Positions 27,967-61,051 of a stretch of DNA of 64,000 nucleotides are shown here, in pieces. The notes below the pieces were generated by a model. The model ran no database searches. It had not been told where the DNA came from and saw only the letters and a program-made list of their open reading frames with translations. Origin of the DNA: Deltaproteobacteria bacterium. GTDB taxonomy: Bacteria; Desulfobacterota; Desulfobacteria; Desulfobacterales; JAFDMD01. Within the stretch, counting starts at the first letter, position 1. Every line of letters begins with the position of its first letter. The DNA lies in NCBI GenBank assembly GCA_019306065.1, contig JAFDMF010000005.1:843-64842 (forward strand). Reading direction: 5' to 3'. The translations under genes and the position numbers were made by a program.

Positions 27967-28168
27967 AAAAAATCCTTTCAATTATACTATACGCGCCGTT
28001 ATTTTAAAACTCCGAATACTCAATTAACTGCGCGTAAAAATATTGAGAAACCGGCATATCGTAATTTTTTAAGTTACGATATAAAACTAATACAGCTATA
28101 GTTAATCTTTATTTTAATAAATTGCAAATACTATTTTTATAAAAGTTAATTTTTTTGTATCAACATCT

Positions 28169-28237
28169 CATCCTGTCCTGTCGAGCGAAGCGAAAAATTC
28201 CTTTATTATTTTTTTTTAAAAGCTGTCTCCGTATTAT
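28169..28237. repeat. Family-2 repeat, single arm
   Basis: CATCCTGTCCTGTCGAGCGAAGCGAAAAATTCCTTTATTATT plus the tail CTGTCTCCGTATTATAAT. It abuts the stop of the DUF47 gene. Confidence 0.75.
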
Positions 28238-31517: not shown

Positions 31518-31541
31518 AGACGCCGTATTCAGCATCTCTAC
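31514..31541. terminator. Hairpin GTAGAGACGC-N8-GCATCTCTAC sharing the outer arms of PAL28, between convergent genes
   Basis: 10-bp stem with 1 mismatch. It overlaps the TAG stop of the beta-helix gene and lies 23 nt from the stop of the convergent BI-1 gene. Confidence 0.4.
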
Positions 31542-31563
31542 TGGAACTAACTAATATGAATAA

Positions 31564-32274: not shown

Positions 32275-32497
32275 CTTATTTATCTCCTTTAAATTATTTA
32301 TATTGGCTATGAGATGTCCAAGACACAAAAAATTTCGGACATCTTTTTTCTAATAATTCCTTCTTGTATCTATAACATAATCGTAGTCTATCACATAAAT
32401 TATAGTTAAGCACAGTTTGGACAAAAGGCTTTATCAAAATTAATTAATAAATCTGCGGTCAATTATAATGATAATATATAAAATTTCAACTTAAAAA

Positions 32498-32595
32498 TTG
32501 CTTCCTGTCCTGTCGAGCAAAGCGAGAAATCTCTTTATTATTTCCTTTTAACCTGTCTCCGTTTTATAATCATCCCTTTTTGCGTCTATAATATT
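32498..32595. repeat. Family-2 repeat, single long arm
   Basis: TTGCTTCCTGTCCTGTCGAGCAAAGCGAGAAATCTCTTTATTATTTCC...CTGTCTCCGTTTTATAATCATCCCTTTTTGCGTCTATAATA. Confidence 0.75.
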
Positions 32596-35023: not shown

Positions 35024-35335
35024 GAATATATTATAGAACAAAAGAGTTATCTTTTAACAAATACTTCGAGGCAAACTGCTCATAATATAGGATTTAGTCA
35101 AACTGAAATTATCGATACAATTAGTGGATTAGAGGCAAAAGATTTTTATAAATCAACAACGGAATTTTATAAACAAAATATTTGGCAAGATGTTTATAAA
35201 CCTACGGCAAAGGGATATTTCCTGTATGTTAAATTTAAAATTACAAAGGATAAAATACGCCTAATTATAACCTCTTTTAAAAGAGCGGAGGAAGATTTTT
35301 ATTTACATAAGGAGAAACGCTATGAATGTATATAA
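35024..35335 (+). pseudogene. mqsR: MqsR-family toxin gene lacking an in-frame start codon
   Basis: The open frame ...GLEAKDFYKSTTEFYKQNIWQDVYKP...IITSFK matches MqsR (DFYKSMT...IWQDVY). No ATG, GTG or TTG occurs after the TGA at 35021. The only ATG (35007) is in another frame. The 3' end overlaps the mqsA start. Confidence 0.65.
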
Positions 35336-35777
35336 TAAAATGTTATGCTCTGTATGCGAATCAGGACAAATTGAATCTTGCATACAGGATTTGCCGTTTG
35401 AATATAAAGGGAAAAAAACCGTTTTGCCCGATCAAATTATATTTAAATGCCCCGAGTGCGCCGAAACATTTATCTCTCCGGAAAATGAACGCAATATTGA
35501 TAAATATTTAATAGACGAACGCCGAAAAATCGATGGATTATTAACTTCGGACGAAATTAAGGCAATTAGAAAACAATACGGTATGACGCAAACGGCATTT
35601 GCAAAAATGCTTAGAGTCGCCGCAAAAACCTTTGCTCGTTATGAAAACGGGCAGGTAGCGCAAAGCTATGCAATGGATAATCTGCTTCGTATCCTGAGGA
35701 AATTTCCAGATGCTATTTCCGCCATTTCTAATATTGAAACAAAAATAAAAAACGCCGCGACCGCGTTATCCGCATAG
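35322..35777 (+). CDS. mqsA: MqsA-family antitoxin (zinc-ribbon plus HTH)
   Basis: CSVCESG...CPECAE zinc ribbon, followed by the HTH segment IRKQYGMTQTAFAKMLRVAAKTFARYENG. Confidence 0.85.
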   Translation: MNVYNKMLCSVCESGQIESCIQDLPFEYKGKKTVLPDQIIFKCPECAETFISPENERNIDKYLIDERRKIDGLLTSDEIKAIRKQYGMTQTAFAKMLRVAAKTFARYENGQVAQSYAMDNLLRILRKFPDAISAISNIETKIKNAATALSA

Positions 35778-35812
35778 AGATAAACCTGCCTGTAAGCATG
35801 CGGGTTTAAAAA

Positions 35813-35900
35813 AGGTTTCTCGCTTTGCTCGAAATGACAGGCTTCTTATTTTTGCCGGCGTTTTTGCCATATAATGTCAACGAGCGCAGCAAGGAGAAAT
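35813..35900. repeat. Family-2 inverted-repeat element (paired arms)
   Basis: GGTTTCTCGCTTTGCTCGAAATGACAGGC ... GTCAACGAGCGCAGCAAGGAGAAAT. Confidence 0.75.
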
Positions 35901-35943: not shown

Positions 35944-37230
35944 ATGAAATACAATAGAAAAATCTCGGTAATAGGACTCGGATATGTAGGACTGCCTGTA
36001 GCTGTAGCTTTTGGGAAACTCGGTTTAACAATAGGATATGATATAAATTCAAAAAGAATCGAAGCCTTAAAAAAAGGATTTGACGCTACCGGCGAAATAA
36101 CGCCGGAACAGCTTAAAAATTCCGACATACTATTTACCGATAACATATACAATTTAAAATCCGCCGATTTTCATATAATAGCCGTGCCTACGCCTATAGA
36201 CCAAGCAAAAAAGCCGGATCTAACCCCCCTGTTTAAAGCGTCCGAGAGCATAGGAAAAATATTAAAAAAAGGGGATATTGTAGTATATGAGTCTACCGTT
36301 TATCCCGGAGCCACCCAAGAAGACTGCGTTCCGATATTGGAAAAACATTCAAACCTTAAAAACGGCGCAGACTTTACCGTAGGCTACAGCCCCGAACGCA
36401 TAAACCCCGGAGATAAAGAGCATACATTCGATAAAATAAAAAAAATAGTATCCGGTCAAGATAGTAAAACCCTTGAAATAATAGCCAAAGTATATCAAAG
36501 CGTAGTAACTGCAGGGATATATTGCGCGCCTTCTATTAAAATAGCCGAAGCCGCAAAAATAATAGAAAACACCCAGCGGGATATAAACATAGCTTTAATG
36601 AATGAACTTGCTTTAATATTTGATAAAATAGGTATAAATACCAATCAAGTATTAGAAGCTTCAAAAACAAAGTGGAACTTTTTACCCTTTAAACCGGGGC
36701 TTGTAGGCGGACACTGCATAGGAGTAGATCCTTATTATCTAACACATAAAGCGGAAAAACTCGGCTATACTCCACAAGTAATACTTGCCGGCAGAAGATT
36801 AAACGACGACATGGGCAAATTTATAGCAAAACAGGCAATAAAAAAGATAATTGCCGCCGGGCACAACATATTAAAAAGTTCCGTTACCGTTCTTGGCGTA
36901 ACATTTAAAGAAAACTGCCCCGACATACGAAACTCCAAAGTAATAGATATAATACAAGAGTTAGAGGAATTCGGCATAAAGGTAACGCCCCATGACCCTT
37001 ATGCTGATTACGAAGAATGTAAAAAAGAATACGGCATCGGTTTATCCGATTTCAACGAATTAACTCCGGCATCCTGCGTTATTATAGCCGTAGAACACGA
37101 TCAATATAAAAAACTGCCCACAAAAACCTTATTTGCTCTTTTAAAAAAAAACGGCGTTATAATAGACGTAAAAGGAATATTTAATTCCGATAAAATCATA
37201 AAAGCCGGTTATACTTATTGGAGTTTATAA
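35944..37230 (+). CDS. Nucleotide-sugar dehydrogenase (UDP-GlcNAc/ManNAc dehydrogenase type; TviB/WbpO/Cap5O-like)
   Basis: 428 aa. N-terminal ISVIGLGYVGLPVAVAFG Rossmann fold and the catalytic Cys context GGHCIGVDPYY. Confidence 0.9.
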   Translation: MKYNRKISVIGLGYVGLPVAVAFGKLGLTIGYDINSKRIEALKKGFDATGEITPEQLKNSDILFTDNIYNLKSADFHIIAVPTPIDQAKKPDLTPLFKASESIGKILKKGDIVVYESTVYPGATQEDCVPILEKHSNLKNGADFTVGYSPERINPGDKEHTFDKIKKIVSGQDSKTLEIIAKVYQSVVTAGIYCAPSIKIAEAAKIIENTQRDINIALMNELALIFDKIGINTNQVLEASKTKWNFLPFKPGLVGGHCIGVDPYYLTHKAEKLGYTPQVILAGRRLNDDMGKFIAKQAIKKIIAAGHNILKSSVTVLGVTFKENCPDIRNSKVIDIIQELEEFGIKVTPHDPYADYEECKKEYGIGLSDFNELTPASCVIIAVEHDQYKKLPTKTLFALLKKNGVIIDVKGIFNSDKIIKAGYTYWSL

Positions 37231-37384
37231 TTAAAACTCAAAACCGTTATATAATAAAGGATAATTATAAAGTAATAAAGATACAGAGTAATATCAGACA
37301 AAAAAAATGATAAAAGTCGGCAGGATAACAAAGTGCAAATTACAAAGTTAGACGGTAAACTTTAAACAAAGAAAGTTAAACCAA

Positions 37385-38473
37385 ATGCAATTTATAGATT
37401 TAAAAACCCAATATAAACAGCTTCAAGAAAAAATAGATAAAAACATAAAAAAAGTATTAGATCACAGCCAATTTATAATGGGGGCCGAGGTAAAAATACT
37501 CGAAGAAAAACTTGCCGAATACATAGAAGTAAAACACTGCATTACAGTGTCCAGCGGAACAGACGCTTTGCTTGCCGCGCTTATGGCGCTTAACATTAAA
37601 AAAGGCGACCAAGTAATTACAACCCCGTTCAGCTTCATCGCAACTGCAGAAAGCATAATTCTAACAGGAGCGGAACCTGTTTTTACAGATATAAATCCGC
37701 TTACCTACAACATAGAGCCAAATCTGATAGAAAAAGCAATAACTTCCGAAACAAAAGCGCTAATGCCCGTATCGTTATACGGACAATGCGCGGATATGGA
37801 CGCCATCAACAACATAGCGGCAAAGTACAACATCCCCATAATAGAAGATGCCGCCCAAAGCTTCGGAGCGGAATATAAAAATAAAAAATCATGCGGATTA
37901 ACTCTTATCGGCTGCACAAGCTTCTTCCCTTCAAAACCGCTTGGATGCTACGGAGACGGAGGAGCATGCTTTACAAATGACGATACAATTGCCAAGAAAC
38001 TAAAAGAAATAAGAGATCACGGGCAAAACGGACGTTATAATCACATACGAATAGGAATAAACGGAAGATTAGACACATTACAAGCGGCAATACTTCTTGC
38101 AAAATTGGAAACATTTGATACGGAAGTAAAAGCAAGAGAACAAATCGGCGCAAGATATACCAGACTTTTAAACAATATAAAAGCAATTACCGCCCCGCAT
38201 ATCCAACCCCACAATAAAAGCGTATATGCTCAATATACAATACAGATTGATAACAGAGACAGTTTTGCGGAAAAACTCAAACAAAAAAATATTCCTACTG
38301 CGGTTCATTATCCCATCCCCCTTAACATGCAGCCCGCAATAGATCAGACAAATAAAAAATTTCCTATTGCAGAAACCGTAGCAAAACGAGTAATAAGTTT
38401 GCCAATGCATCCGTTTTTAAGCAAAAAGGAACAGGATATAATAGTAAATGCGATTATAGAGGCTATCAGTTAA
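37385..38473 (+). CDS. DegT/DnrJ/EryC1/StrS-family sugar aminotransferase
   Basis: 362 aa. The SSGTDALL motif, DAAQSFGA and the PLP-Lys region FFPSKPLGCYGDGGA are present. Confidence 0.9.
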   Translation: MQFIDLKTQYKQLQEKIDKNIKKVLDHSQFIMGAEVKILEEKLAEYIEVKHCITVSSGTDALLAALMALNIKKGDQVITTPFSFIATAESIILTGAEPVFTDINPLTYNIEPNLIEKAITSETKALMPVSLYGQCADMDAINNIAAKYNIPIIEDAAQSFGAEYKNKKSCGLTLIGCTSFFPSKPLGCYGDGGACFTNDDTIAKKLKEIRDHGQNGRYNHIRIGINGRLDTLQAAILLAKLETFDTEVKAREQIGARYTRLLNNIKAITAPHIQPHNKSVYAQYTIQIDNRDSFAEKLKQKNIPTAVHYPIPLNMQPAIDQTNKKFPIAETVAKRVISLPMHPFLSKKEQDIIVNAIIEAIS

Positions 38474-38513
38474 AAAATAGAGAAATAAAAAAGTATTATA
38501 AAAGAGGTTAAAA

Positions 38514-38669
38514 ATGTCAAAACATTATCCCATCATAATCGAACAAGACACAGACGGTTTTTTTATAGTTACCTGTCCTTTTTTTAAAGGATGCCGAAGT
38601 TACGGCAAAACAATTGACGAGGCGATGGATAATATAAAAGAGGCTGTTGAGTTATGCGCCGAAGAGTAG
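38514..38669 (+). CDS. hicB: HicB-family antitoxin, shortened by an in-frame TAG (the frame continues to 38735)
   Basis: MSKHYPIIIEQDTDGFFIVTCPFFKGCRSYGKTIDEAMDNIKEAVELCAEE*. After the TAG the same frame reads DVDFYIQPSFIGIRDIEIAAV and ends in an ATGA overlap with hicA. Confidence 0.75.
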   Translation: MSKHYPIIIEQDTDGFFIVTCPFFKGCRSYGKTIDEAMDNIKEAVELCAEE

Positions 38670-38731
38670 GATGTCGATTTTTATATACAGCCGTCTTTTA
38701 TAGGTATCAGAGATATTGAGATAGCTGCCGT

Positions 38732-38962
38732 ATGACGCGATATCCGATTATATCTTTCAACAACTTGATTGCCGTAGCAAAAAAACTTGGTTTTCAACAA
38801 ACACGGCAAAAAGGTTCTCATATTCGTTTTATTCATCAAGACGGAAGAAAAATTACCATTCCTGATCATAGTAATAAAGATGTGCCTAAAGGTTTACTCT
38901 TTAAAATCATTAAATATGATCTTGAGTTAACTGCCGATGATTTTTTCAAACTTATCCGATAA
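38732..38962 (+). CDS. hicA: HicA-family mRNA interferase toxin
   Basis: The core LGFQQTRQKGSHIRFIHQDGRKITIPDH is the HicA (YcfA-like) signature. Confidence 0.85.
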   Translation: MTRYPIISFNNLIAVAKKLGFQQTRQKGSHIRFIHQDGRKITIPDHSNKDVPKGLLFKIIKYDLELTADDFFKLIR

Positions 38963-39006
38963 CATTTAAAAAATTAATATCAGACAATTATAACTAACTT
39001 AAAAAA

Positions 39007-39572
39007 ATGAAAAACAAAGCAAGACAATATAAATCCTCTACAATTAAAAGACTTCATACGTTATCTGGCAATCAATGCGCGGCGCCGGATTGCGAATGAA
39101 AAAGGACCCAGATTTAATCCGAATATGATAGATGAAGAAAGAAGACATTTTAATAACCTCATCCTGCTCTGCGACGAATGTCATGAAATTATAGATAATA
39201 AAGCAAATGAAAAAAATATCCTGTAGAGCTTTTAAGAGAGTGGAAAAAAAATCATGAAGGTAAACACAGTTAAATCGTTTAAATTCAAACCCTTCATTAT
39301 TGAAACTTACTATAAAGGCGATAATAGACGCTGATCTTGAAAATAACGAATATAAAAACGAGGAAACTTATGCGCCTTTTAAGAAAGAAAGCCTGCTAAG
39401 ATACATAAAAATATTATATAATAAATCAAAAGGGAAATATATTGAAAATTATGATAATCGAATCGAAGCAATCAAAACTAACGCCGATAATATAATAGAG
39501 GATATTGAAAACAACCTTCTTGAATCAATTAAAAAAAATAGTAAAATATATAAGCTTTCGCAATACCCATAA
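39007..39572 (+). pseudogene. HNH-nuclease effector of an ABC-three-component-like system, broken by frameshifts and an internal deletion
   Basis: Pieces lie in three frames: CAAPDCE*, then GPRFNPNM..NLILLCDECHEIIDN, then YPVELLREWKKNHE, then the 90-aa tail ORF 39300-39572. Confidence 0.55.
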
Positions 39573-39624
39573 TAATGGTTGACGCTTTTATGAGATGTAA
39601 AATATTAGAGGAGCCCATAAAAAA

Positions 39625-39855
39625 ATGATAATAGCAAAAGATATACATCCCGAAAAAAAAATATATTATCTCGGAGTTTCGGTTTTAAAAGAATTGAAAA
39701 ATTCCGATGAAAAAAAACTTGATTTTTTAAATATATACCGCGAACTAAATAAAAACAAAAAAATACCCATGCAGCTATTTATATTAACTTTGGATTGGTT
39801 ATTTCTTTTAGGAGCAATAGAGAGCGAAAAAGGTTACATAAAAAAATGTTTTTAA
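39625..39855 (+). CDS. Small 76-aa protein resembling an ABC-3C middle component
   Basis: Its size, its position between effector and ATPase, the 4-nt-scale overlap with the next ATG, and the C-terminal LTLDWLFLLGAIE..GYI pattern all fit. Confidence 0.5.
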   Translation: MIIAKDIHPEKKIYYLGVSVLKELKNSDEKKLDFLNIYRELNKNKKIPMQLFILTLDWLFLLGAIESEKGYIKKCF

Positions 39856-40100
39856 AAAGCCTTATAATAGAAAACAACAAAACAATAATAAGAGAAATCC
39901 TTTTTAATAAAGGAATAAATCTTATCGTAGATGAAACCCCTACAAAAGACAGAACAAAATCCGGAAATAATGTCGGTAAAACCACAGTATTAAGGCTTAT
40001 AGATTACTGTTTGGGAGGCGCCGGGAAAAATATATATCAATATCCCGAATTTAAAAACAGCTCCAACACCCGAATAGAAAAACTTTTTAAAATAGAATAA
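39846..40100 (+). pseudogene. N-terminal 85-codon stub of a DUF2326-type ABC/SMC-like ATPase (ABC-3C ATPase), truncated
   Basis: MFLKSLIIENNKTI..FNKGINLIVDE...GNNVGKTTVLRLIDYCLGG is a Walker A region. The ORF stops at 40100, far short of a full ATPase. Confidence 0.6.
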
Positions 40101-40122
40101 CAAATAAAAAAACAAAATTAAA

Positions 40123-40422
40123 ATGAATAACCAACTTAAAACAAACATAAAAAAAATCATAACAAACCAACTCGGAAACAAAGTTAAAATATTTCTTTTC
40201 GGTTCGAGAGCAGATAATACGCATACAAAACAATCCGATTATGATATAGGAATAATATCCAATACGCCGATTCCTTTTGATACAATGCAGCGCATCAAAG
40301 AAAATATAGACAAACTTCCTATATTACAGCAAATTGATATAATAGATTTCAAAAGAGTAAACGCCGATTTTTACAATAAAGTTTTATCAAGTGAAAACTC
40401 CGTTATTAAAGAATTGGTTTAA
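40123..40422 (+). CDS. Minimal nucleotidyltransferase (MNT-type antitoxin)
   Basis: FLFGSRADNTHTKQSDYDIGI is the GSx10-DxD nucleotidyltransferase motif. Confidence 0.8.
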   Translation: MNNQLKTNIKKIITNQLGNKVKIFLFGSRADNTHTKQSDYDIGIISNTPIPFDTMQRIKENIDKLPILQQIDIIDFKRVNADFYNKVLSSENSVIKELV

Positions 40423-40451
40423 ATTTTTTTTATTGGACAATATAAAAAGCG

Positions 40452-40479
40452 GTAGAGACGTTGCATGCAACGTCTCTAC
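40452..40479. repeat. PAL28 palindrome, perfect 28-bp copy GTAGAGACGTTGCATGCAACGTCTCTAC
   Basis: Perfect palindrome read directly from the sequence. It sits between the MNT and HEPN genes. Confidence 0.95.
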
Positions 40480-40587
40480 ATAATGCCAAATTTTTAGCCA
40501 ACTATGATTAAATTTTTTTTTCAACGCAGAAAACGGGTAAAATACAAAGTTAGACAGCGGAATTTAAATAGGGAAACAATATTATAA

Positions 40588-40983
40588 ATGGATATAGAGC
40601 AAAAACTTCAATACCTTTTAAACAGTTTCGATAAAGCTTGCAGGCAACTTGAAAAAGCTTTGGCTTTGCCCAAAGATGAATTCATTCGAGATTCCGCAAT
40701 ACAACGTTTTGAATTTACATTTGAATTATTTTGGAAAACCCTTAAAACATATTGCAACATACTCGGATTCAAAGCGGATTCTCCGAGAGCAAGCATAAAA
40801 CAATCCTTTAAAGCAGGAATAATCAAAGACAACCCAATCTATCTTGCTATGCTGCAAGTCAGAAACTTAACCGCCCATACTTACGAAGAAAAGCTTGCCG
40901 AAGAAATATATACAAAACTGCCTTCTTATTCAAAGGCAATGCAGGAGGCAATTGCAAACATTCGTAAAGATTTTTATGATTAA
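40588..40983 (+). CDS. HI0074-family nucleotidyltransferase substrate-binding protein (HEPN toxin partner)
   Basis: RDSAIQRFEFTFELFWKTLK and RNLTAHTY (the HEPN Rx4-6H motif). Confidence 0.85.
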   Translation: MDIEQKLQYLLNSFDKACRQLEKALALPKDEFIRDSAIQRFEFTFELFWKTLKTYCNILGFKADSPRASIKQSFKAGIIKDNPIYLAMLQVRNLTAHTYEEKLAEEIYTKLPSYSKAMQEAIANIRKDFYD

Positions 40984-41014
40984 GCAGTCATTCAAAAAAT
41001 AAAAAAGGTTAAAA

Positions 41015-41179
41015 ATGACAAAACATTATCCCATTATAATCGAACAAGACACAAACGGCTTTTTTATAGTTACCTGTCCTTTTTTTAAAGAATGCCGAAG
41101 TTATGGCAAAGCCATTGACGAGGCGACGGATAATATAAAAGAGGCTATTGAATTATGCGCGGCGGAATTCTCGAATTAA
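41015..41179 (+). CDS. hicB: Second HicB copy, with its 3' end fused to the last ~40 nt of a deleted hicA
   Basis: MTKHYPIIIEQDTNGFFIVTCPFFKECRSYGKAIDEATDNIKEAIELCAAEFSN*. By my hand count there are about 15 mismatches to copy 1 over 153 nt. The downstream CTCGAATTAACTGCCGATAATTTTTTTAAACTTATC matches the hicA tail at 38921-38958. Confidence 0.7.
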   Translation: MTKHYPIIIEQDTNGFFIVTCPFFKECRSYGKAIDEATDNIKEAIELCAAEFSN

Positions 41180-41244
41180 CTGCCGATAATTTTTTTAAAC
41201 TTATCTAACTAATCATAATGAGATTACGGGAGACACAAACTGCA

Positions 41245-42231
41245 ATGTTTGACGACAAAACAATATTAATAACCGGAGGCACAGGCTCCTTCGGAAGAAA
41301 ATGCACCCAAACAATCCTAAAACGCTACAAACCGAAAAAACTAATCATATTCAGCCGAGACGAACTAAAACAATTTGAAATGGCTCAAACATTTTCCGCC
41401 GATAAATATTCCTGCATAAGATACTTCATAGGAGACGTTCGAGACAAAGAACGCCTTTACCGAGCATTCTATAACGTAGACTACGTAATCCACGCGGCGG
41501 CATTAAAACAAGTTCCGGCAGCGGAATACAACCCCTTTGAAGCCGTAAAAACAAACATAATAGGCGCTCAAAACATAATAAACGTAGCAATAGATCAAAA
41601 AGTAAAAAAAGTTATAGCCCTAAGCACAGACAAAGCGGTTAATCCGATAAATCTATACGGGGCTACAAAATTATGCTCCGACAAACTATTTGTAAGCGCA
41701 AACGTTTATGTAGGAAAAGAACATACGATATTTTCGGTAGTCCGATACGGAAACGTAGTAGGAAGCAGAGGCAGCGTCATACCTTTTTTTATAAAGAAAA
41801 AAAATACTGGAACACTTCCCATTACAGATCCTCGTATGACACGCTTTTGGATTACGTTAAAACAAGGAGTGAATTTTGTTATCGAACGCTTCGAGCGAAT
41901 GGTAGGCGGCGAAATATTCGTTCCGAAAATACCCAGTATGAACATAATGGATCTGGCAAAAGCAATATCTCCGGAAGCAAAAACCGAAATAACAGGCATA
42001 AGACCCGGAGAAAAACTTGATGAAGTAATGATTTCAAAAGACGATTCCAGACACACCGTAGAATTTGACGACTACTACATAATAATGCCCGTTTTTCATT
42101 TTTTTGAAAAAAGATTCAACAACAAAAACAACAACTGCAAACCTGTTGAAGAAGGCTTCGAATACAACTCCGGCACAAACAAACAATGGCTTACGGTAGA
42201 ACAACTACAAGAAATGATAAAACAAATATGA
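41245..42231 (+). CDS. pseB: UDP-N-acetylglucosamine 4,6-dehydratase (inverting), PseB/FlaA1-type
   Basis: MFDDKTILITGGTGSFGRK..., the YGATKLCSDKL catalytic YxxxK, and polysaccharide-biosynthesis (CapD-like) short-chain dehydratase features. The ORF track starts 27 nt earlier, at 41218. Confidence 0.9.
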   Translation: MFDDKTILITGGTGSFGRKCTQTILKRYKPKKLIIFSRDELKQFEMAQTFSADKYSCIRYFIGDVRDKERLYRAFYNVDYVIHAAALKQVPAAEYNPFEAVKTNIIGAQNIINVAIDQKVKKVIALSTDKAVNPINLYGATKLCSDKLFVSANVYVGKEHTIFSVVRYGNVVGSRGSVIPFFIKKKNTGTLPITDPRMTRFWITLKQGVNFVIERFERMVGGEIFVPKIPSMNIMDLAKAISPEAKTEITGIRPGEKLDEVMISKDDSRHTVEFDDYYIIMPVFHFFEKRFNNKNNNCKPVEEGFEYNSGTNKQWLTVEQLQEMIKQI

Positions 42232-43385
42232 TCCCTTACGGAAAACAAAACATCTGCAAACAGGATATAGAAAAAGTTATCCAAATCCTCAATTCTAACA
42301 ACCTTACCCAAGGTCCTACCGTGTTAAAATTCGAACAGGCTTTGGCAAAACATTGCAAAGCAAAATATGCGGTTGCGGTTTCAAGCGGAACCGCCGCCTT
42401 ACATCTTGCTTATCTTGCCGCCGGCATCGGCAAAAACGATGCAATATGGACAACTCCCAATACATTTGCGGCAACGGCAAACGCCGCGCTTTACTGCGGG
42501 GCAAAACCCAATTTTATAGATATAAATCCCAACACCTACAACATATCCGTTGAAAAATTAGAAGAAAAACTTATACAAGCGGCAAAAAATAACAGCCTGC
42601 CACAAGCGGTTATCCCCGTTCATTTTGCAGGGCAGGCATGCGAAATGAAAAAAATAGCTCGGCTATCCCGCAAATACGGCTTTACAATAATAGAAGACGC
42701 CTCGCATGCCATAGGAACAAAATATAACGACGGCAAATATATAGGAGACTGCAAATATTCGAATATTACTACATTTTCTTTCCATCCCGTAAAAACAATA
42801 ACCACCGGAGAAGGCGGAGCCGCGCTTACAAACAATAAAAAAATATATAAAAAACTTCTAACGCTGCGCTCTCATGGAATTGTAAAAAACAGCAAAATGG
42901 CGGAAAAATACGGGCTATGGTATTATCAAATGCAACATCTCGGTTTCAATTACAGAATAACCGACATACAAGCAGCATTAGGGATTTCCCAGTTAAACAA
43001 ATTAAACAATTTTGTAGAAAAAAGAAAAAAAATCGTCCGGCAATACAACAACGCCTTCAAAAACATACCACACCTTACAATCCCCTACGAAAAAGAAAAA
43101 AAAAACACATCTTTTCATCTATATGTATTACAAATAGATTTTAAAAAAATAAAAAAAAGCCGAAAAACAGTAATGGAAAAACTATCTGCCCGAAACATAG
43201 CAACCCAAGTTCATTACATCCCCGTTTATAGGCATCCTTATTATAAAAAAAAGTTCGGATACAACTATAAAAACTATCCCGCAACCGAAAACTATTATAA
43301 AAAAGCGTTAAGCATACCCTTATATCCGGCAATGACAAACTCGCAAGTAGAGTATGTAATAGAAAAAATAACCGCTTTGTTTTAA
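42228..43385 (+). CDS. pseC: UDP-4-amino-4,6-dideoxy-N-acetyl-beta-L-altrosamine transaminase-like (DegT family), PseC-type
   Basis: MIPYGKQNICKQDIEKVIQIL is the typical PseC N-terminus. SSGTAALHLA, DASHAIG and SFHPVKTITTGEGG are present. The ATGA overlaps the pseB stop. Confidence 0.85.
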   Translation: MIPYGKQNICKQDIEKVIQILNSNNLTQGPTVLKFEQALAKHCKAKYAVAVSSGTAALHLAYLAAGIGKNDAIWTTPNTFAATANAALYCGAKPNFIDINPNTYNISVEKLEEKLIQAAKNNSLPQAVIPVHFAGQACEMKKIARLSRKYGFTIIEDASHAIGTKYNDGKYIGDCKYSNITTFSFHPVKTITTGEGGAALTNNKKIYKKLLTLRSHGIVKNSKMAEKYGLWYYQMQHLGFNYRITDIQAALGISQLNKLNNFVEKRKKIVRQYNNAFKNIPHLTIPYEKEKKNTSFHLYVLQIDFKKIKKSRKTVMEKLSARNIATQVHYIPVYRHPYYKKKFGYNYKNYPATENYYKKALSIPLYPAMTNSQVEYVIEKITALF

Positions 43386-43542
43386 ATAGTTGCTATCTTA
43401 ATCTATACATTAACGAATTTTTAATCCGCTTTATATATTTGGCGCAGATTTTGAATTTTTCATTGCTCTTTTATTTCTGTTTTTGTAATAGTTATACTAT
43501 TACAACGGCTTATAACAGAGCAAAAAAAAGGAGCAAAACAGA

Positions 43543-43836
43543 ATGAAATCCGTTGAAGAAATTAAAAATATTATTAGCTCGCAAAAACCGCTGTTAATTA
43601 AAAAGCATAAAATAAAAGAAATCGGAATATTCGGCTCGTATGTAAAGGGAGAGCAAAATAATAACAGCGATATAGATATTCTTGTAAGCTTTGAAGAATT
43701 TCCCGGACTTATTCAATTTATAAGCCTACAAGATGAATTAAGCCAATATCTGGACGCGAAAGTGGATTTGGTAACAAAAAGCGGTCTTAAACCGGAAATA
43801 GGCAAACATATTATAAATGAGGCGGTTTATCTGTGA
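43543..43836 (+). CDS. Nucleotidyltransferase-domain antitoxin (MntA-like)
   Basis: IGIFGSYVKGEQNNNSDIDILV is the GSx10-DxD motif. It shares a GTGA overlap with the next gene. Confidence 0.85.
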   Translation: MKSVEEIKNIISSQKPLLIKKHKIKEIGIFGSYVKGEQNNNSDIDILVSFEEFPGLIQFISLQDELSQYLDAKVDLVTKSGLKPEIGKHIINEAVYL

Positions 43837-44216
43837 TACGAGAATGTATTGATTTTATAAAAGATATAATTAAGTCTATTGAAGATGTTCAAATCTTTGT
43901 AACTGGCTTTAACTTTAATCGTTTCGGTCAAGACATAAAAACGGTTTATGCGGTAATCAGAGCTATCGAAATAATGGGCGAGGCTGTTAAACACATTCCT
44001 AATACAATCAAAAAAGAGCATTCTGATATTCCTTGGAAGCAGATCGCCGGAATGCGCGATAAATTAATTCACGAATATTTCGGCATAGATATGATGATTG
44101 TGTGGAAAACCGCAACTAAAGAGATTCCGAAACTTAAACCTCTGTTTTTACAGATACAGGATATGGAAATAACAAAAAAAAATCGGTTAAAAAAAATAAA
44201 CATACTTCAAGAATAA
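43833..44216 (+). CDS. DUF86 / HepT-like HEPN toxin
   Basis: The Rx4H context MRDKLIHEYFGID and the AIEIMGEAVKHIP helix are typical of DUF86. Confidence 0.85.
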   Translation: MIRECIDFIKDIIKSIEDVQIFVTGFNFNRFGQDIKTVYAVIRAIEIMGEAVKHIPNTIKKEHSDIPWKQIAGMRDKLIHEYFGIDMMIVWKTATKEIPKLKPLFLQIQDMEITKKNRLKKINILQE

Positions 44217-44685
44217 GGAGGCAATTATGCAAAGAGAATTTAAAACAAGATAAAAACCTTGTATTTGTTTTTAATGCCTTTTAAAGATTCCAATATGAAA
44301 AAATTGCATAATAAAGAAACGGAGTTGGAAACCGTTAAAAGAAAATTAGAAGATTATAATAAAAATCATAAGAAAGCCGAGGCGGATTATAACAAAGCAA
44401 CGGAAATAAATCCGAATCTATTTAAATAACGAAAGATTAAGGGCTAAATTAAATAAAAAAACCGCTGCGCAGATTGAAAACAATCGATAAATTTCAATAA
44501 CCTTTAATTACAAAACTGCGCCTATAGGTTTTAAAACCGTCAACCGCTTCAAACCCAAAACAAACCGTCTCAAACCTGCGAAGAACCATTTTAAGCTTGC
44601 AATAAGCAATCTCCCGCTTGCAACGATTTATTTCAATCTTGCGGCGTTACATTTAAGGTAAAATTATAATTGAAAGGAGAAAACA

Positions 44686-45303
44686 ATGAGTAAAAAAGTG
44701 CCTAGAAAAGAGGCGGAGCTTGTAGCTTTGGTAGAGGTTATGATAGGCGGATTAAAGGTAGACCCAAAAATATTTACAGACCCGCCTTTAACCTTCGAGC
44801 AGCTAACCAATGCCATAAACAAAATAAACCTTTCCGTAGACAAAGTGGCTCAAAAAAAATCGGATTATCATAAAGCGATTAAAGAGAAAAACGCAAACCT
44901 TAACGCCTTATACAATAATGCCCGCGAAATTGCGGAATATTGTTATAGAATCTCTAAAAATAATCAAGTTATTCTTGCAAAAGTCGGTTTAACCCCGCGA
45001 GCCGTAAAACAATCCGTAGAGTCGCCAGGACAATGCCGCAGTTTTACCGTAGTAAAACAGGAAATTGACAGCGCAACATTTAAATGGAAAGAGCCTATAG
45101 CAGGCGGGAAAATAAGAGCATACATAATACAGCGCAAAGAATCCGAAGCCCAGTCAGACACATGGATAAATCTATGGACGGAAATCGGCAAAGAAGCGGA
45201 AATAAAAGAACAGTCTACAGACAAAACCTTCGATTATAGAGTGCGCGCTCTTAATAGATCCGGAATAGGGGAGCAGAGCAATACGGTTACTTTAAAATTT
45301 TAA
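44686..45303 (+). CDS. Hypothetical protein with an N-terminal helical region and a C-terminal fibronectin type III domain
   Basis: The C-terminal ~90 aa (FTVVKQEIDSATFKWKEP..GGKIRAYIIQRK...FDYRVRALNRSGIGEQSNTV) follow the FN3 strand pattern. AAAGGAGA precedes the ATG. Confidence 0.6.
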   Translation: MSKKVPRKEAELVALVEVMIGGLKVDPKIFTDPPLTFEQLTNAINKINLSVDKVAQKKSDYHKAIKEKNANLNALYNNAREIAEYCYRISKNNQVILAKVGLTPRAVKQSVESPGQCRSFTVVKQEIDSATFKWKEPIAGGKIRAYIIQRKESEAQSDTWINLWTEIGKEAEIKEQSTDKTFDYRVRALNRSGIGEQSNTVTLKF

Positions 45304-45354
45304 AATAAAAAAATACCGTAAAAAGCAACATTATAAATTTGAAACAACAATATT

Positions 45355-45382
45355 GTAGAGACGTTGCATGCAACGTCTCTAC
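45355..45382. repeat. PAL28 palindrome, perfect 28-bp copy
   Basis: GTAGAGACGTTGCATGCAACGTCTCTAC, 51 nt after the stop of the FN3 gene. Confidence 0.95.
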
Positions 45383-45497
45383 CGCAATTAATAACTTGCA
45401 ATCTTCCCCTTTCTTCCTTTCCTCTCCATTTTCCCCTTGTAAACTCATCATAATTTTATTATTATCGTAGAAAAATAACCCATTTTACAGGTAAAAA

Positions 45498-48400
45498 ATG
45501 AAAAAGCAAAAGAGTAAAAAAACAGCGACAAATATCATCTTAATAATTATAATCTTCTTATTTTGCGGTTTTTATTTAAAAAAAGCATGCGAGGCATCGG
45601 ATGCAATAAATCCGGAAAAAACAAAAGGCTTTGTTTATTACAAACAAAATGTCGCTCCCATATTAGCAAAAACATGTTCTTCAAAGGATGAAAACGGGGT
45701 TTATGTATGTCATGGAAAAAGCGGAGCGGAAGCGGAAAAAGAGGAATACGCAAAGTTTCATAATGCTCCTTATCAAAATTCTCAGTATTGCCAAACCTGT
45801 CATACTCAAAAAAAGGGGAAATTTTCTTTTATACTTGATTCCCAAGGTAAAATATCAACTTCGGCTCAATACATACTATCTTATATAGAAGCGAAAAAAA
45901 AGGCGGTTCATAATAAAATACCGTTTGCAAAGATATTAAGAATGCCTCTTGTGGGGCAAGCCGGCGGATTCGGACTTTATCATAAGGGCGGAGAAATATT
46001 TAACGGCACATCGGACCCGCAATACAAAAAACTTGCGGAATGGGTAAGATTGGAAAACGAAGATATAAAAAAGGTTCTTGCTCAAAACAAAACCGAACAA
46101 TTTTTTGCAAAAAAAGTTTTGCCTGCATATGCAAGAAACTCATGCTTTAATCCGTCCTGTCATATATTTAATCACAGCTCCTTTTTGCCGGATGCGGGAA
46201 TGGAAACCGAAGATTTAAATACCAAAATAGAAAACAGATTTTCTTTAGAGCAAATCCGGTTCAACCGAATGACTTCAAAAGGTTTGATACAGCATAATGT
46301 TTATTTGACCGGAGATGTCGAACAAAGCAGAATTTTAAAAAAAAACATACCTATTAATCAAGGCGGAGTTCTTCACAGAGGCGGAAACGATCAGTTTTTT
46401 ACCGGACCGGACGATCCCGATTATAAAATATTAAAAGAATGGCTTATGATGGAGCGCGAAGATGCCGTATCAAAACTTAAAACAAACGGCAAAAAAATCA
46501 AGCCTTCTATGGTAGGCAAGCTTCAAGGGATAGTATTTGTCCGAACAAAAACAAAAAATTACAGAAAATATCTTGACGTAGGAAAATATATGCCAGGCGC
46601 GGATTTATATCTGTTAAAATTAAAAGAAGGGGAGACGCTACAAAATACTACAAGCAAGCCTATAAACCTTACCGCCCGTTTTCGTAAAGGCAAAGAGGCG
46701 GATATAAGAGAGCCGGATATAAGATACGACGGACAAGCAATTTTATTTGTAATGAGAATAGGCGAAGCCGATAATCTCAATATATATGAACTTACGGCAG
46801 ATTCAAACCTTGATTTTTCAAAAGGAACATTAAGAAAGCTTACTTACGGACACAAATATATAAACGGAATAAAGATTCATTATACGGATCCTACTTATGT
46901 TCCCGATCCTGCGGACAAAAATGCGGCGGCAGGGGGATATAACCTTGATAAAGCGGATATAGTATTTGCTTCCAATATAAGCGGATATATGGTTCAAAGC
47001 GAAGAACGCGGCATAGTAGGGGAGGCGGATGCGGGAGATACAACAACCATAATAGATTTTGACAGACCCGAAACGGATAATACATTTGTAGGAAAAAGAA
47101 TCTATATAGTTGACGGAACAAACAAAGGAGAACGGAGAACAATAATAGATTTTAAAAATCGGCTTTTTACTCAAGAAAAACGCTCTTACATAACCGTAGA
47201 TCGCCCCTTTGCAAAACCTATCGATAATTCTACTATATATGTAATAGAGCGGGATAAAAACAGCCAACCCGGATTTCTGCCTTCATATTCGGTATATGGC
47301 ATAAAATATCCCGAGCCATTACAAGAAAAAGAGAATTATAATCAAACCCTGTCCCGAATCACCTACGGAATAGCCCAAGAACTCGATATTAGCGTCCGAA
47401 CCACCGGCGAAGTTTTTTTTACGGGGCAGCGCTCATTTACGGATAAATACGACAGACCTATCTTTCATCTTACAAGCTGCAGAAGACATCTTGATACAAG
47501 ATTTAGTTTTCCCACACATCAGGGAAACAGATCGGAAGTTATAATATATGCGGATAACTACGAAATGCCAAGCGGAATAGATATACACGTAGGTATGGAA
47601 CCTCGCAATTTATGGGAAGGAGGCAATTTAAACGTATCGGATCATCAGATGGGTCCAGGGCTTGAAGCAAGAAACCCTAATGATTTTTCCACCGGATATT
47701 TTGACGAAAACAAAATGCCCGTAACCGAAAATGTCAAAATATCCAATACAAGATACAATTTCAAAAATAAAAAACAGCCCTCTCATACAAGATTCATATT
47801 TAAAAAAATATCCCTTTTCCCTTTAAGAGGACCCAATGCGGTATCTCGAACAGGATATTCTCCAGGCGGAGTATTTAAAGATTCTACGCCGCTTCCAAAC
47901 GGAGACATTCTGGTTTCACATTCCGATAAACCAATAAATAATCTCAATCCGAAAGCAAACCCGGATTTTGATCTATACATTATAAAGCCGGATCCAAGCT
48001 TTCATTCCGAAGGCGGAAAAACAAACCCGAAAGTTAAAAAAGTAAAAATAGCCGCGGCATCAAAAGCCGGAACAAGCGAAGTTCAGGCATATCCGCTTTA
48101 TATAAGACTAAAACCGAAAATAAATGCGGCAAAAAGACCAAAGAAAGAACATCTTATAGGACCCGCTGGAAAACCGGAAGACAGCCGTCCGGCAGTATAT
48201 CTTGAAAGAAACTACCTTTTAATAGATGCAATAATGGATAATCCGTCTCCGGTAGGCAAAAATACCGCATATCCTGCAAATCCGATGACGGGCGCAAAAA
48301 TCGCTCCCATAGATGAAGTTAAATATGTAAGAATGATAGAAGTTATGCCAACAAAGCCCGATCTTGCCAAAAAAGTGGATACAAATAAAATAAAAAACAA

Positions 48401-61040: not shown

Positions 61041-61051
61041 TTTTTTGCTTG

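What the first reader, a model, noticed from the sequence alone, without database searches (positions are those of the whole stretch)
38503..41210. A 2.5-kb toxin-antitoxin and defence junkyard bounded by a direct duplication of hicB, inserted inside a nucleotide-sugar locus
hicB occurs twice, at 38514-38669 and 41015-41179, with about 15 mismatches over 153 nt by hand count. The first copy is followed by an intact hicA. In the second copy the hicB 3' end is joined directly to the last ~40 nt of hicA (41170-41210 versus 38921-38962), which is a deletion of about 250 bp.

Between the copies lie a broken HNH effector, a small middle-component-like gene, an ATPase stub, an MNT-HEPN pair and a PAL28 copy. 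The whole block separates the sugar dehydrogenase and aminotransferase genes (35944-38473) from pseB and pseC (41245-43385). The structure records serial insertion, duplication and deletion at one hotspot.
Basis: seen in the sequence. Interest (0 to 1): 0.6.

Follow-up and report, generated by a model that had tools for sequence, protein, structure and literature searches.

The report
Decaying toxin-antitoxin and defence gene graveyard
The 2.7-kb gap between two pairs of sugar-biosynthesis genes in this uncultured deltaproteobacterial genome is filled with selfish toxin-antitoxin and phage-defence genes in various states of decay, including two diverged copies of hicB; this is a real but ordinary pattern of bacterial genome evolution.

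Summary
Window 38498-38659 and 40999-41160 are direct repeats (162 nt, 12 mismatches, E 1e-64). The second hicB is fused to the last ~37 nt of hicA, a net 252-bp internal deletion. Between the copies lie an HNH effector pseudogene, an intact MC6 gene, a remnant of a DUF2326 ABC ATPase (together a dead Lamassu/ABC-3C system), an MNT-HEPN pair and a 28-nt palindrome.

An independent metagenome scaffold (L083, 99.6% identical) spans both copies, so this is not an assembly artefact.

The interpretation needs four corrections:
- The repeats do not bound an inserted unit. The sister species (L003) keeps the inner MNT-HEPN pair and a longer hicA tail next to pseB, but lacks both hicB copies and the Lamassu remnant.
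- The duplication is not recent. Copy dS is about 0.29, against 0.32-0.51 for orthologues.
- hicB copy 1 is itself broken in this window by a TAG at codon 52. Other assemblies of the same population have CAG there.
- The "sugar locus" is two separate two-gene modules, with no evidence that they were ever contiguous.

The ATPase remnant appears to keep its native start and end, which suggests decay in place. All parts belong to known families. Interest is low.

The parts
35944..37230 (+). Left flank: UDP-N-acetylglucosamine/mannosamine-type nucleotide-sugar dehydrogenase (TviB/WbpO-like)
   Evidence: Three UDPG_MGDP_dh Pfam domains match. TIGR03026 is above its cut-off, and the TviB model scores 517 bits, below its 592 cut-off. 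The L003 orthologue is 91% identical at the protein level.
37385..38473 (+). Left flank: DegT/WbpE-like aminotransferase
   Evidence: PF01041 matches at E 1.5e-119. Close homologues are named UDP-2-acetamido-2-deoxy-ribo-hexuluronate aminotransferase by JGI.
38498..38659 (+). Direct repeat, copy 1 (ribosome-binding site plus the first 146 nt of hicB)
   Evidence: 162 nt, 92.6% identical to 40999-41160.
38514..38735 (+). hicB copy 1: a 73-codon frame interrupted by TAG at 38667-38669 (codon 52), so the ORF as called is 38514-38669 (51 aa)
   Evidence: Pfam HicB_lk_antitox scores 39.3 bits. It resembles PDB HicB 6G1C/6G1N and TTHA1756. L001 and L083 have CAG at 38667 and a 73-aa product, while L002 has TAG.
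38732..38962 (+). hicA copy 1: intact 76-aa toxin gene whose start overlaps the hicB frame stop (ATGA)
   Evidence: Pfam HicA_toxin scores 65 bits. It aligns to 1WHZ, and the G-S-H motif lies at residues 28-30.
39007..39628 (+). Pseudogene of an HNH effector (LmuA-like component of an ABC-3C/Lamassu system), with at least 4 frame switches
   Evidence: Three-frame translation. The HNH Pfam fragment matches. The reconstructed peptide matches PADLOC PDC-M68A at E 4e-14. The native C-terminal motif IIMVDAFMRCKILEEP at 39569-39616 matches the pCLJ effector C-terminus. The sequence is identical in L001 and L083.
39625..39855 (+). Intact 76-aa ABC-3C middle component 6 (LmuC-like) ORF, now an orphan
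   Evidence: Pfam MC6 scores 66.6 bits against a cut-off of 27.2. The 10-nt overlap with the ATPase start is the same as in intact plasmid operons.
39846..40100 (+). Remnant of a DUF2326/YydD-type ABC ATPase (LmuB-like): about 78 N-terminal codons, including Walker A (GNNVGKTT), joined to about 6 native C-terminal codons (KLFKIE, then stop). Intact homologues are 573-581 aa.
   Evidence: PADLOC PDC-M68B matches positions 5-59 of 581 at E 1.6e-12, and LmuB models also match. Homologues are named DUF2326/YydD. N-terminal homology ends near residue 78-82. The C-terminal motif DKLF(K/R)IE is present in full-length plasmid homologues.
40123..40422 (+). MNT (minimal nucleotidyltransferase) gene of an HI0073/HI0074-type pair
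   Evidence: Pfam Polbeta scores 51.8 bits. The G-S-x10-D-x-D motif lies at residues 27-41. The L003 orthologue is 74% identical.
40452..40479 (.). PAL28, a perfect 28-nt palindrome from a dispersed intergenic repeat family, sitting in the MNT-HEPN spacer
   Evidence: Four copies with 3 or fewer mismatches occur in the window, against 0 expected. It is absent from L003, whose MNT-HEPN spacer is not homologous.
40518..40565 (.). Copy of a second short dispersed repeat in the same spacer
   Evidence: 88% complementary to 55072-55119 (pair I8).
40588..40983 (+). HEPN-domain gene (HI0074 family, nucleotidyltransferase substrate-binding protein-like), with an intact ORF
   Evidence: Pfam NTase_sub_bind scores 109 bits. 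TIGR01987 scores 95.8 bits against a cut-off of 55.8. The R-x4-H motif lies at residues 92-97. The L003 orthologue is 88% identical but has a premature stop at codon 106.
40999..41160 (+). Direct repeat, copy 2
41015..41179 (+). hicB copy 2: a 54-codon fusion ORF made of hicB codons 1-49, a junction, and an out-of-frame read into the hicA tail
   Evidence: Pfam HicB_lk_antitox scores 31.1 bits. It has 7 non-synonymous and 5-7 synonymous differences from copy 1. The identical ORF is present in L083.
41169..41205 (+). Remnant of the last ~12 codons of hicA, directly upstream of pseB
   Evidence: 33 of 37 positions match 38920-38956. An orthologous but longer tail (~61 nt) sits at the same place in L003.
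41245..42231 (+). Right flank: pseB (UDP-GlcNAc 4,6-dehydratase, inverting)
   Evidence: TIGR03589 scores 539.7 bits against a cut-off of 407.75, aligned from residue 1 when the start is set at 41245.
42186..43385 (+). Right flank: pseC aminotransferase
   Evidence: TIGR03588 scores 529.8 bits against a cut-off of 423.5.

Best explanation
The spacer between the DegT aminotransferase gene and pseB is an in-line accumulation site for selfish toxin-antitoxin and defence modules, most of which have decayed where they sit. It is not one inserted element.

The parts, all on the + strand with short spacers and no predicted terminator between them, are:
- hicBA copy 1. The toxin gene is intact. The antitoxin gene carries a segregating C-to-T nonsense mutation at codon 52.
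- A dead Lamassu/ABC-3C system. The HNH effector has at least 4 frameshifts. The MC6 gene is intact. The DUF2326 ABC ATPase is reduced to about its first 78 and last 6 codons by an internal deletion of roughly 1.5 kb.
- An MNT-HEPN pair of the HI0073/HI0074 type. It looks intact, but small dispersed repeats including PAL28 have colonised its spacer.
- hicBA copy 2, collapsed by a 252-bp internal deletion into a 54-codon hicB'-'hicA fusion.

Most likely history (inferred):
1. The common ancestor of this lineage and its sister species already had MNT-HEPN followed by a hicBA module directly upstream of pseB.
2. That module suffered independent internal deletions in each lineage. The window keeps hicB plus 37 nt of hicA. 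The sister species keeps only about 61 nt of hicA.
3. The second hicBA copy is its paralogue. It sits with a once-complete effector-MC6-ATPase operon between the aminotransferase and MNT genes. This segment was either gained in the window lineage or lost in the sister lineage.

How the parts work (inferred from family knowledge):
- HicA is a small mRNA-cleaving toxin held in check by HicB.
- MNT neutralises the HEPN RNase.
- The Lamassu remnant cannot function, because it lacks nearly all of its ATPase and has a broken nuclease.
- The modules probably ride on read-through transcription of the surrounding sugar genes.
For: Shown:
- Repeat statistics.
- Family assignments.
- Catalytic motifs are present in HicA, MNT and HEPN.
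- The effector frame disruptions are identical in three assemblies.
- Intact reference operons on plasmids run effector - MC6 (75 aa) - DUF2326 ATPase (573-581 aa), with the same 10-nt overlap between MC6 and the ATPase.
- The remnant keeps the family's C-terminal DKLF(K/R)IE motif just before its stop codon. The effector keeps its native C-terminal motif just before MC6.
- The sister species L003/L085 has AT - MNT - HEPN - hicA tail - pseB. Its hicA tail starts 19 nt further upstream than the tail of window copy 2, so the two deletions are independent.
- L083 spans the whole block at 99.56% identity.
- The nonsense site at 38667 is polymorphic. It is T in the window and L002, and C in L001 and L083.
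- HicA copy 1 has no homologue above 80% identity anywhere else among 5.8 billion proteins, so the two local copies are each other's closest relatives.
- Copy dS is about 0.29, against 0.32-0.51 for orthologues.
- No + strand terminator-like site lies inside the block.
- Other toxin-antitoxin insertions fill neighbouring gaps: an mqsR remnant plus mqsA at 35030-35777, absent from L003, and a second MNT-HepT pair at 43543-44216.
Against: - Polarity is unresolved. With only one sister lineage, gain of the 1.6-kb hicBA-1 plus Lamassu segment in the window lineage and its loss in L003 are equally parsimonious. No closer relative exists in the collections searched.
- The dS comparison rests on only about 29 synonymous sites.
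- The reading of the ATPase as an internal deletion rests on a 6-residue C-terminal match. The residues just before it could also be read as continuing N-terminal homology.
- Nothing here shows that any module is expressed or active.
- All assemblies are short-read metagenomes.
Confidence: 0.78

Rival explanations
1. The block is one inserted or integrated element whose ends are the two hicB copies. For example, a circular element carrying a hicBA homologue could have integrated by a single crossover (Campbell-type) into a chromosomal hicBA. This is what the first reader's title implies.
For: The direct repeats of 162 nt plus 37 nt lie at the two ends of the spacer. Everything between them is toxin-antitoxin or defence cargo.
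Against: The sister species keeps the inner MNT-HEPN pair (74% and 88% amino-acid identity) and the junction between the hicA tail and pseB, while lacking both hicB copies. The indels therefore do not coincide with the repeat boundaries. There is no integrase, transposase, tRNA or att-like feature in 64 kb. The repeats are 7% diverged, with dS about 0.29.
Confidence: 0.06
2. The second hicB copy, or the whole arrangement, is an assembly artefact caused by expansion of a repeat or chimeric joining of strain variants.
For: The source is a metagenome-assembled genome. L001 ends 25 bases before PAL28, at window 40437, which would fit an assembly break at that repeat, though nothing here shows why the contig ends there.
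Against: An independent ENA scaffold from another sample (L083) contains both copies in one gap-free stretch, identical to the window at both. The copies differ at 12 of 162 positions and have different flanks and different 3' structures, unlike an artefactual duplicate.
Confidence: 0.03
3. The truncated hicB copy 2 is not junk. It would be a retained orphan mini-antitoxin, consisting of only the N-terminal ~50 residues of HicB. It would neutralise HicA-1 in trans, which would explain how a nonsense allele of hicB-1 can segregate while hicA-1 stays intact.
For: Copy 2 keeps its ribosome-binding site and an open 54-codon frame. dN/dS between the copies is about 0.2. Both hicB genes end at almost the same residue, 51 and about 50. 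hicA-1 is intact and keeps its G-S-H motif in all assemblies.
Against: The counts are tiny (7 non-synonymous and 5-7 synonymous changes), and they partly date from when both copies were intact. By my own recollection of the HicB fold (beta-beta-beta-alpha-beta, not checked here), truncation at residue ~50 would remove the last strand. There are no expression or toxicity data. HicA-1 may simply be weakly expressed or already inactive.
Confidence: 0.1
4. The two hicBA modules were acquired independently, as two related cassettes from outside, rather than by duplication within the lineage.
For: The unit shared by the two copies is a precise cassette running from the ribosome-binding site to the hicA stop, with unrelated flanks. 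Toxin-antitoxin modules are known to move horizontally (general knowledge).
Against: No other HicA above 80% identity exists in the 5.8-billion-protein collection, whereas the two local hicB copies are 92.6% identical at the DNA level. This makes a local paralogous origin the simpler reading.
Confidence: 0.1

Closest known systems
HicAB type II toxin-antitoxin modules (short single-domain HicB/UPF0150 type, for example Thermus TTHA1756 and TTHA1913-like 1WHZ, and Burkholderia HicAB 6G26)
   Same: The HicA_toxin and HicB_lk_antitox domains are above the Pfam cut-offs. The G-S-H motif is present. The two genes overlap by ATGA in the intact allele.
   Different: The gene order is hicB then hicA. 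The antitoxin is a 73-aa form with no DNA-binding domain. In this window copy 1 has a nonsense codon in hicB, and copy 2 is a deletion fusion with no toxin.
Lamassu / ABC-3C defence systems, MC6 subtype (PADLOC candidate PDC-M68). An intact example is on Clostridium botulinum plasmid pCLJ, genes CLJ_RS00355-00365.
   Same: The order effector - MC6 - DUF2326 ABC ATPase is the same, as are the overlapping gene boundaries, the Walker A motif and the terminal motifs. The equivalence of ABC-3C and Lamassu is taken from PMC10586767.
   Different: Here the system is dead. The effector is frameshifted at least 4 times, and the ATPase has 84 codons instead of about 575. The effector head is an HNH nuclease, which differs from the pCLJ effector.
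HI0073/HI0074-type MNT-HEPN pairs (related to type VII MntA-HepT toxin-antitoxin systems)
   Same: The MNT gene has the GSx10DxD motif and the HEPN gene has the Rx4H motif. The HEPN gene is above the TIGR01987 cut-off. The two genes are co-oriented neighbours.
   Different: The two genes are 165 nt apart rather than adjacent or overlapping, and the spacer holds dispersed repeats. The MNT gene scores below the MntA equivalog cut-off (45.8 against 60). The sister species has a truncated HEPN gene.
Defence islands and toxin-antitoxin-rich variable hotspots with pseudogenised systems
   Same: Unrelated toxin-antitoxin and defence modules cluster at one intergenic site. Content varies between close relatives, and decay by deletion and frameshift is frequent.
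   Different: The scale is very small (2.7 kb). There are no mobility genes. The modules are embedded in-line between housekeeping-type sugar genes. Neighbouring intergenic gaps carry further single toxin-antitoxin modules.

Membership tests
HicAB type II toxin-antitoxin | Toxin with a HicA (YcfA) domain above the family threshold | tested here: met
   PF07927 scores 65 bits against a cut-off of 27 for 38732-38962.
HicAB type II toxin-antitoxin | Conserved catalytic histidine in a G-x-H motif of HicA | tested here: met
   G-S-H lies at residues 28-30 and aligns to G-G-H of 1WHZ. That this histidine is catalytic is taken from the literature, not tested here.
HicAB type II toxin-antitoxin | Adjacent, co-oriented antitoxin gene with a HicB N-terminal domain | tested here: met
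   PF15919 scores 39.3 bits (copy 1) and 31.1 bits (copy 2) against a cut-off of 27. In L001 and L083 the 73-codon hicB overlaps hicA by ATGA.
HicAB type II toxin-antitoxin | Complete antitoxin reading frame in this window | tested here: not met
   Copy 1 has TAG at codon 52 (38667-38669). Copy 2 is truncated at about codon 50 and fused to the hicA tail.
HicAB type II toxin-antitoxin | Toxicity of HicA and its neutralisation by HicB | not testable with these tools
   This needs expression experiments.
Lamassu / ABC-3C (MC6 subtype, PDC-M68) | Three-gene order: effector - middle component - ABC/SMC-like ATPase | tested here: met
   HNH pseudogene at 39007-39628, MC6 at 39625-39855 and ATPase remnant at 39846-40100. 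The order and overlaps match pCLJ and the P. megaterium plasmid.
Lamassu / ABC-3C (MC6 subtype, PDC-M68) | Middle component above the family threshold | tested here: met
   PF20293 MC6 scores 66.6 bits against a cut-off of 27.2.
Lamassu / ABC-3C (MC6 subtype, PDC-M68) | Full-length ABC ATPase (Walker A through the signature, Walker B and D-loop motifs, plus coiled coil) | tested here: not met
   Only 84 codons remain, covering positions 5-59 of the 581-position PDC-M68B profile. Intact homologues are 573-581 aa.
Lamassu / ABC-3C (MC6 subtype, PDC-M68) | Intact effector reading frame | tested here: not met
   There are at least 4 frame switches and several stops, identical in three assemblies.
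MNT-HEPN pair (HI0073/HI0074, type VII-like toxin-antitoxin) | MNT with the G-S-x(9-11)-D-x-D nucleotidyltransferase motif | tested here: met
   GSRADNTHTKQSDYD lies at residues 27-41. Polbeta scores 51.8 bits. The MntA equivalog model is below its cut-off, 45.8 against 60.
MNT-HEPN pair (HI0073/HI0074, type VII-like toxin-antitoxin) | HEPN protein with the R-x(4-6)-H motif and a family model above its cut-off | tested here: met
   RNLTAH lies at residues 92-97. TIGR01987 scores 95.8 bits against a cut-off of 55.8.
MNT-HEPN pair (HI0073/HI0074, type VII-like toxin-antitoxin) | Tightly linked bicistronic arrangement | tested here: inconclusive
   The genes are co-oriented but separated by 165 nt that contain PAL28 and a second repeat. 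The spacer is not homologous to that of the sister species.
Mobile element or island bounded by direct repeats | The repeats coincide with the ends of the segment that is present or absent in relatives | tested here: not met
   L003 lacks 38474-40087 and 40984-41168 but retains 40088-40980 and the hicA tail.
Mobile element or island bounded by direct repeats | Recombinase, integrase or transposase, or a tRNA/att site | tested here: not met
   None was found among the ORFs of the 64-kb window that were scanned (most ORFs of 90 aa or more, and the ORFs inside the block). No tRNA gene was found.
Pseudaminic acid biosynthesis locus | PseB and PseC equivalogs | tested here: met
   TIGR03589 scores 539.7 bits against a cut-off of 407.75. 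TIGR03588 scores 529.8 bits against a cut-off of 423.5.
Pseudaminic acid biosynthesis locus | The remaining pathway genes (pseF, pseG, pseH, pseI) or glycosyltransferases are nearby | tested here: not met
   No such domains were found in any of the window ORFs that were scanned.

The most novel reading that the evidence does not exclude
The two ~50-residue HicB N-terminal peptides are functional mini-antitoxins. Copy 2, the hicB'-'hicA fusion, would be retained as an orphan that acts in trans as an anti-addiction factor. That would make full-length hicB-1 dispensable and would explain the segregating nonsense allele beside an intact toxin gene.

A related reading concerns the three internal deletions, in hicBA-2, the ATPase and the effector. 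Each spares the native gene ends. This could reflect selection to keep read-through and translational coupling to pseBC intact while the selfish cargo is disarmed.
Probability: 0.1. Interest if true: 0.4.

Novelty: new member of a known kind. Interest (0 to 1): 0.2.

Why it matters
The significance is modest. The locus is a clean, small example of how toxin-antitoxin and defence modules pile up and erode in place at intergenic gaps of an uncultured, toxin-antitoxin-rich deltaproteobacterial genome.

Two features could be useful:
- Two closely related lineages allow some of the events to be ordered.
- A nonsense polymorphism in an antitoxin sits next to an intact toxin. If the truncated antitoxins still work, this would be a convenient natural experiment on the minimal HicB neutralising unit.

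Otherwise the main practical value is for annotation. The 51-aa and 54-aa 'HicB' proteins, the 84-aa 'ATPase' and the 90-aa ORF at 39300-39572 should be flagged as pseudogene fragments.

Tried and rejected
- **Closer relatives, to polarise the events.** The aminotransferase search found only the window type (100%), the L003 type (85-86%) and L084 (77%). The metagenome DNA scan for the hicA-tail motif found nothing. The PseB scan of JGI metagenomes found nothing above 76% identity. These distant pseB loci only rarely have MNT- or HEPN-like genes upstream.
- **A donor for hicBA.** No HicA above 80% identity exists elsewhere.
- **Full-length close homologues of the ATPase.** The protein search returned only short N-terminal fragments. 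Plasmid records supplied intact but distant operons instead. MC6 alone gave no plasmid hit.
- **TAG read-through or pyrrolysine recoding of hicB-1.** Rejected, because TAG ends 10 of 54 ordinary ORFs in the window and the site is a simple C/T polymorphism.
- **Integron cassette array.** Rejected. There is no integrase, and the spacers of 20-40 nt are too short for attC sites.
- **RNA elements.** There are no Rfam hits and no tRNA genes in the window.
- **Promoter and terminator scans.** Promoter-like sites are at shuffle level. The only strong hairpins are the PAL28 copies, read on the minus strand.
- **A remnant of the ATPase 3' end upstream of MNT in L003**, which would have shown loss in L003. 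The A-rich alignment is too weak to use.
- **Source study.** A literature search for the source accessions found nothing.

Full report
**Observation.** A self-comparison of the window confirms the repeat. Positions 38498-38659 and 40999-41160 are 162-nt direct repeats with 12 mismatches and no gaps (92.6% identity, E 1.7e-64). Positions 38920-38956 and 41169-41205 match at 33 of 37 positions. The repeat starts 16 nt before each ATG, so it includes the ribosome-binding site. In copy 2, 260 nt of copy 1 (38660-38919) are replaced by 8 nt, a net 252-bp deletion that fuses hicB codon ~50 to the last ~12 codons of hicA. The mismatch count is 12, not about 15.

**What the parts are.**
- HicB_lk_antitox matches both hicB copies.
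- HicA_toxin (65 bits) matches 38732-38962, with the G-S-H motif at residues 28-30.
- An HNH fragment is present. A stitched translation of it matches the PADLOC candidate PDC-M68A (E 4e-14).
- ABC-3C middle component 6 matches at E 2e-18.
- An 84-codon ATPase piece matches PDC-M68B positions 5-59 of 581 (E 1.6e-12) and several LmuB models. Its homologues are named DUF2326/YydD.
- An MNT gene carries the GSx10DxD motif.
- An HI0074-family HEPN gene carries Rx4H and is above the TIGR01987 cut-off.
- The flanking genes are a TviB/WbpO-like dehydrogenase, a WbpE-like DegT aminotransferase, and PseB and PseC, both above their equivalog cut-offs.

ABC-3C systems are part of the Lamassu superfamily: LmuA effector, LmuC middle component, LmuB SMC-like ATPase (PMC10586767). 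So 39007-40100 is a dead Lamassu-like operon.

**New details on the decay.**
- **hicB copy 1.** This gene is not intact in the window. Its frame runs for 73 codons to 38735, ending in an ATGA overlap with hicA, but it is interrupted by TAG at 38667-38669. Assemblies L001 and L083 of the same population have CAG there and a 73-aa product. L002 has TAG. TAG is an ordinary stop codon in this genome, ending 10 of 54 ORFs. This is therefore a segregating nonsense allele next to an intact toxin gene.
- **The effector pseudogene (39007-39628).** It changes frame at least four times. It still ends with the family's C-terminal motif (IIMVDAFMRCKILEEP, against IIVVDAFIRCKIFKNP in the Clostridium botulinum pCLJ effector), and its stop overlaps the MC6 start.
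- **The ATPase 'stub'.** It ends ...NTRIE-KLFKIE-stop. Full-length DUF2326 ATPases of intact effector-MC6-ATPase operons end ...DKLFKIENSIL (pCLJ, 581 aa) and ...DKLFRIEND (Priestia megaterium plasmid, 573 aa). Homology to the N-terminus of the family stops near residue 78-82. The most economical reading is an in-frame internal deletion of about 490 codons that left both native gene ends. If so, a complete system once sat here and decayed in place. This step rests on a six-residue match, and I rate it at about 0.65.

**Is the duplication real?** Yes. L083 is a 9,990-bp scaffold from a different ENA metagenome. It is 99.56% identical to window 37997-47708 and contains both hicB copies, the whole block, pseB, pseC and the downstream MNT-HepT pair. 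Its only N runs lie far outside the block. L001 (4.7 kb, a different NCBI assembly) carries AT-hicB-hicA-HNH pseudogene-MC6-remnant-MNT with two SNPs. It ends 25 bases before PAL28, at window 40437.

**Comparison with relatives.** The only sister lineage available is L003, a MAG labelled Desulfobacterales, together with L085. Its orthologue dS is 0.32-0.51. Its gene order is oxidoreductase - DH - AT - MNT - HEPN (premature stop) - about 61 nt of hicA 3' end - pseB - pseC. It therefore shares the inner MNT-HEPN pair and the junction between the hicA tail and pseB. It lacks two separate segments, 38474-40087 (hicBA-1 plus the Lamassu remnant) and 40984-41168 (the hicB-2 part).

Its hicA tail begins 19 nt further upstream than the tail in the window. 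The two lineages therefore deleted a once longer hicA independently, and the common ancestor most simply had a whole hicBA next to pseB. This argues against the hicB repeats being the ends of one inserted element. No integrase, transposase or tRNA was found in the window: none among the ORFs scanned, which were most of those of 90 aa or more, and no tRNA gene.

L003 also lacks the mqsR remnant and mqsA module at 35030-35777. Its MNT-HEPN spacer is not homologous to the window's spacer, which carries PAL28 and a second repeat.

The next relative, L084 (AT 77% identical), has DH-AT followed by yjeF and tsaE, not pseBC. In 80 GTDB loci with more distant AT homologues, AT is not normally next to pseB or pseC. 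The window holds no other sugar-pathway genes. There is thus no evidence that DH-AT-pseB-pseC were ever contiguous. 'Inserted inside a nucleotide-sugar locus' should be read as 'sits between two two-gene sugar modules'.

**Age and origin of the copies.** The hicB copies differ by 7 non-synonymous and 5-7 synonymous changes, giving dN about 0.06 and dS about 0.29 on only ~29 synonymous sites. That is comparable to the divergence from the sister species, so the duplication is old, not recent. No HicA above 80% identity exists elsewhere in a 5.8-billion-protein collection. The two local copies are therefore each other's closest relatives, which favours duplication within the lineage over two imports. 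Whether the 1.6-kb hicBA-1 plus Lamassu segment was gained in the window lineage or lost in L003 cannot be decided. Further scans found no closer relatives.

**How it works.** The following is inferred from family knowledge.
- HicA is a small RNA-cleaving toxin neutralised by binding of the HicB N-terminal domain.
- The MNT protein counteracts the HEPN RNase.
- Lamassu needs its ATPase and effector, both of which are destroyed here.
- All genes lie on the + strand with short spacers, and no + strand terminator-like site lies within the block. They are probably carried on read-through transcripts of the sugar genes.
- The only units that could still act are hicA-1, MNT-HEPN-1, and hicB-1 in carriers of the CAG allele.
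- How cells with the TAG allele tolerate hicA-1 is open. The 51-aa HicB or the 54-aa copy-2 product may still neutralise it, or HicA-1 may be weak or silent.

**Verdict.** The locus is a small graveyard of toxin-antitoxin and defence genes built from known families: HicAB, Lamassu/ABC-3C of the MC6 type, and HI0073/HI0074 MNT-HEPN. The genome shows similar debris elsewhere, including an mqsR remnant, a split AAA_15/21 ATPase and a PIN gene. It is a new instance of a known kind and of low general interest.

Noticed in passing
window 35030-35777: A second decayed toxin-antitoxin module lies one gene upstream. It consists of an mqsR toxin remnant (Pfam MqsR_toxin E 4.8e-20, beginning at profile position 16, with no start codon) followed by an intact mqsA antitoxin gene (35322-35777). 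The whole module is absent from the sister species L003, where the oxidoreductase gene is followed directly by the dehydrogenase gene.
   Followed up: yes
window 1137-1164, 11110-11137, 40452-40479, 45355-45382 (degenerate copy at 31515-31543): PAL28 (GTAGAGACGTTGCATGCAACGTCTCTAC) is a dispersed perfect 28-nt palindrome. Four copies with 3 or fewer mismatches occur, against 0 expected by chance. All lie in intergenic DNA. Three follow the 3' end of the upstream gene within about 20-55 nt, while the copy at 1137 is about 128 nt downstream of its gene. This resembles REP elements. PAL28 is absent from the 10.9-kb sister-species contig L003. Its function is unknown.
   Followed up: partly
window 11212-11266, 28161-28215, 32493-32547, 61604-61658; inverted copies at 12425-12479, 35799-35853, 60992-61046: A second family of intergenic repeats, about 55 nt long, has the core CCTGTCCTGTCGAGCGAAGCGAGAAATCCCTTTATTATTT and occurs in both orientations. 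The MNT-HEPN spacer of L003 carries a similar stretch where the window has PAL28. Different small repeats therefore colonised the same spacer in the two lineages.
   Followed up: partly
window 40604-40625 (5' end of the HEPN gene), compared with L083 at about 2616-2637: Five SNPs cluster within 22 nt between the window and the otherwise near-identical scaffold L083. The window allele equals the L003 allele at 4 of the 5 sites. This suggests a short recombination or conversion tract, or a strain-mixing artefact, in L083.
   Followed up: partly
window 12546-13166 and 13173-13676; 15251-17657: An AAA_15/AAA_21 (OLD/AbiEii-like) ATPase is split into two ORFs. A second, intact AAA_15 ATPase is followed by an unknown 182-aa ORF and a PIN-domain gene. 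These flank a purF-like gene, so there is more defence and toxin-antitoxin material, some of it broken, among housekeeping genes.
   Followed up: no
window 43543-44216: A second MNT-HEPN pair, of the MntA/HepT (DUF86) type with overlapping genes, sits immediately after pseC. With the mqsRA remnant and the main block, three successive intergenic gaps of this gene string hold toxin-antitoxin modules.
   Followed up: partly
L003 9810-10127: The sister species' HEPN orthologue has a premature TAA after codon 105 (131 codons in the window), and its MNT is only 74% identical. The shared MNT-HEPN pair is therefore also decaying in that lineage.
   Followed up: partly
window 39300-39572: The 90-aa ORF that gene callers report here has no family hit. 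It is an internal frame of the HNH effector pseudogene, not a separate gene.
   Followed up: yes
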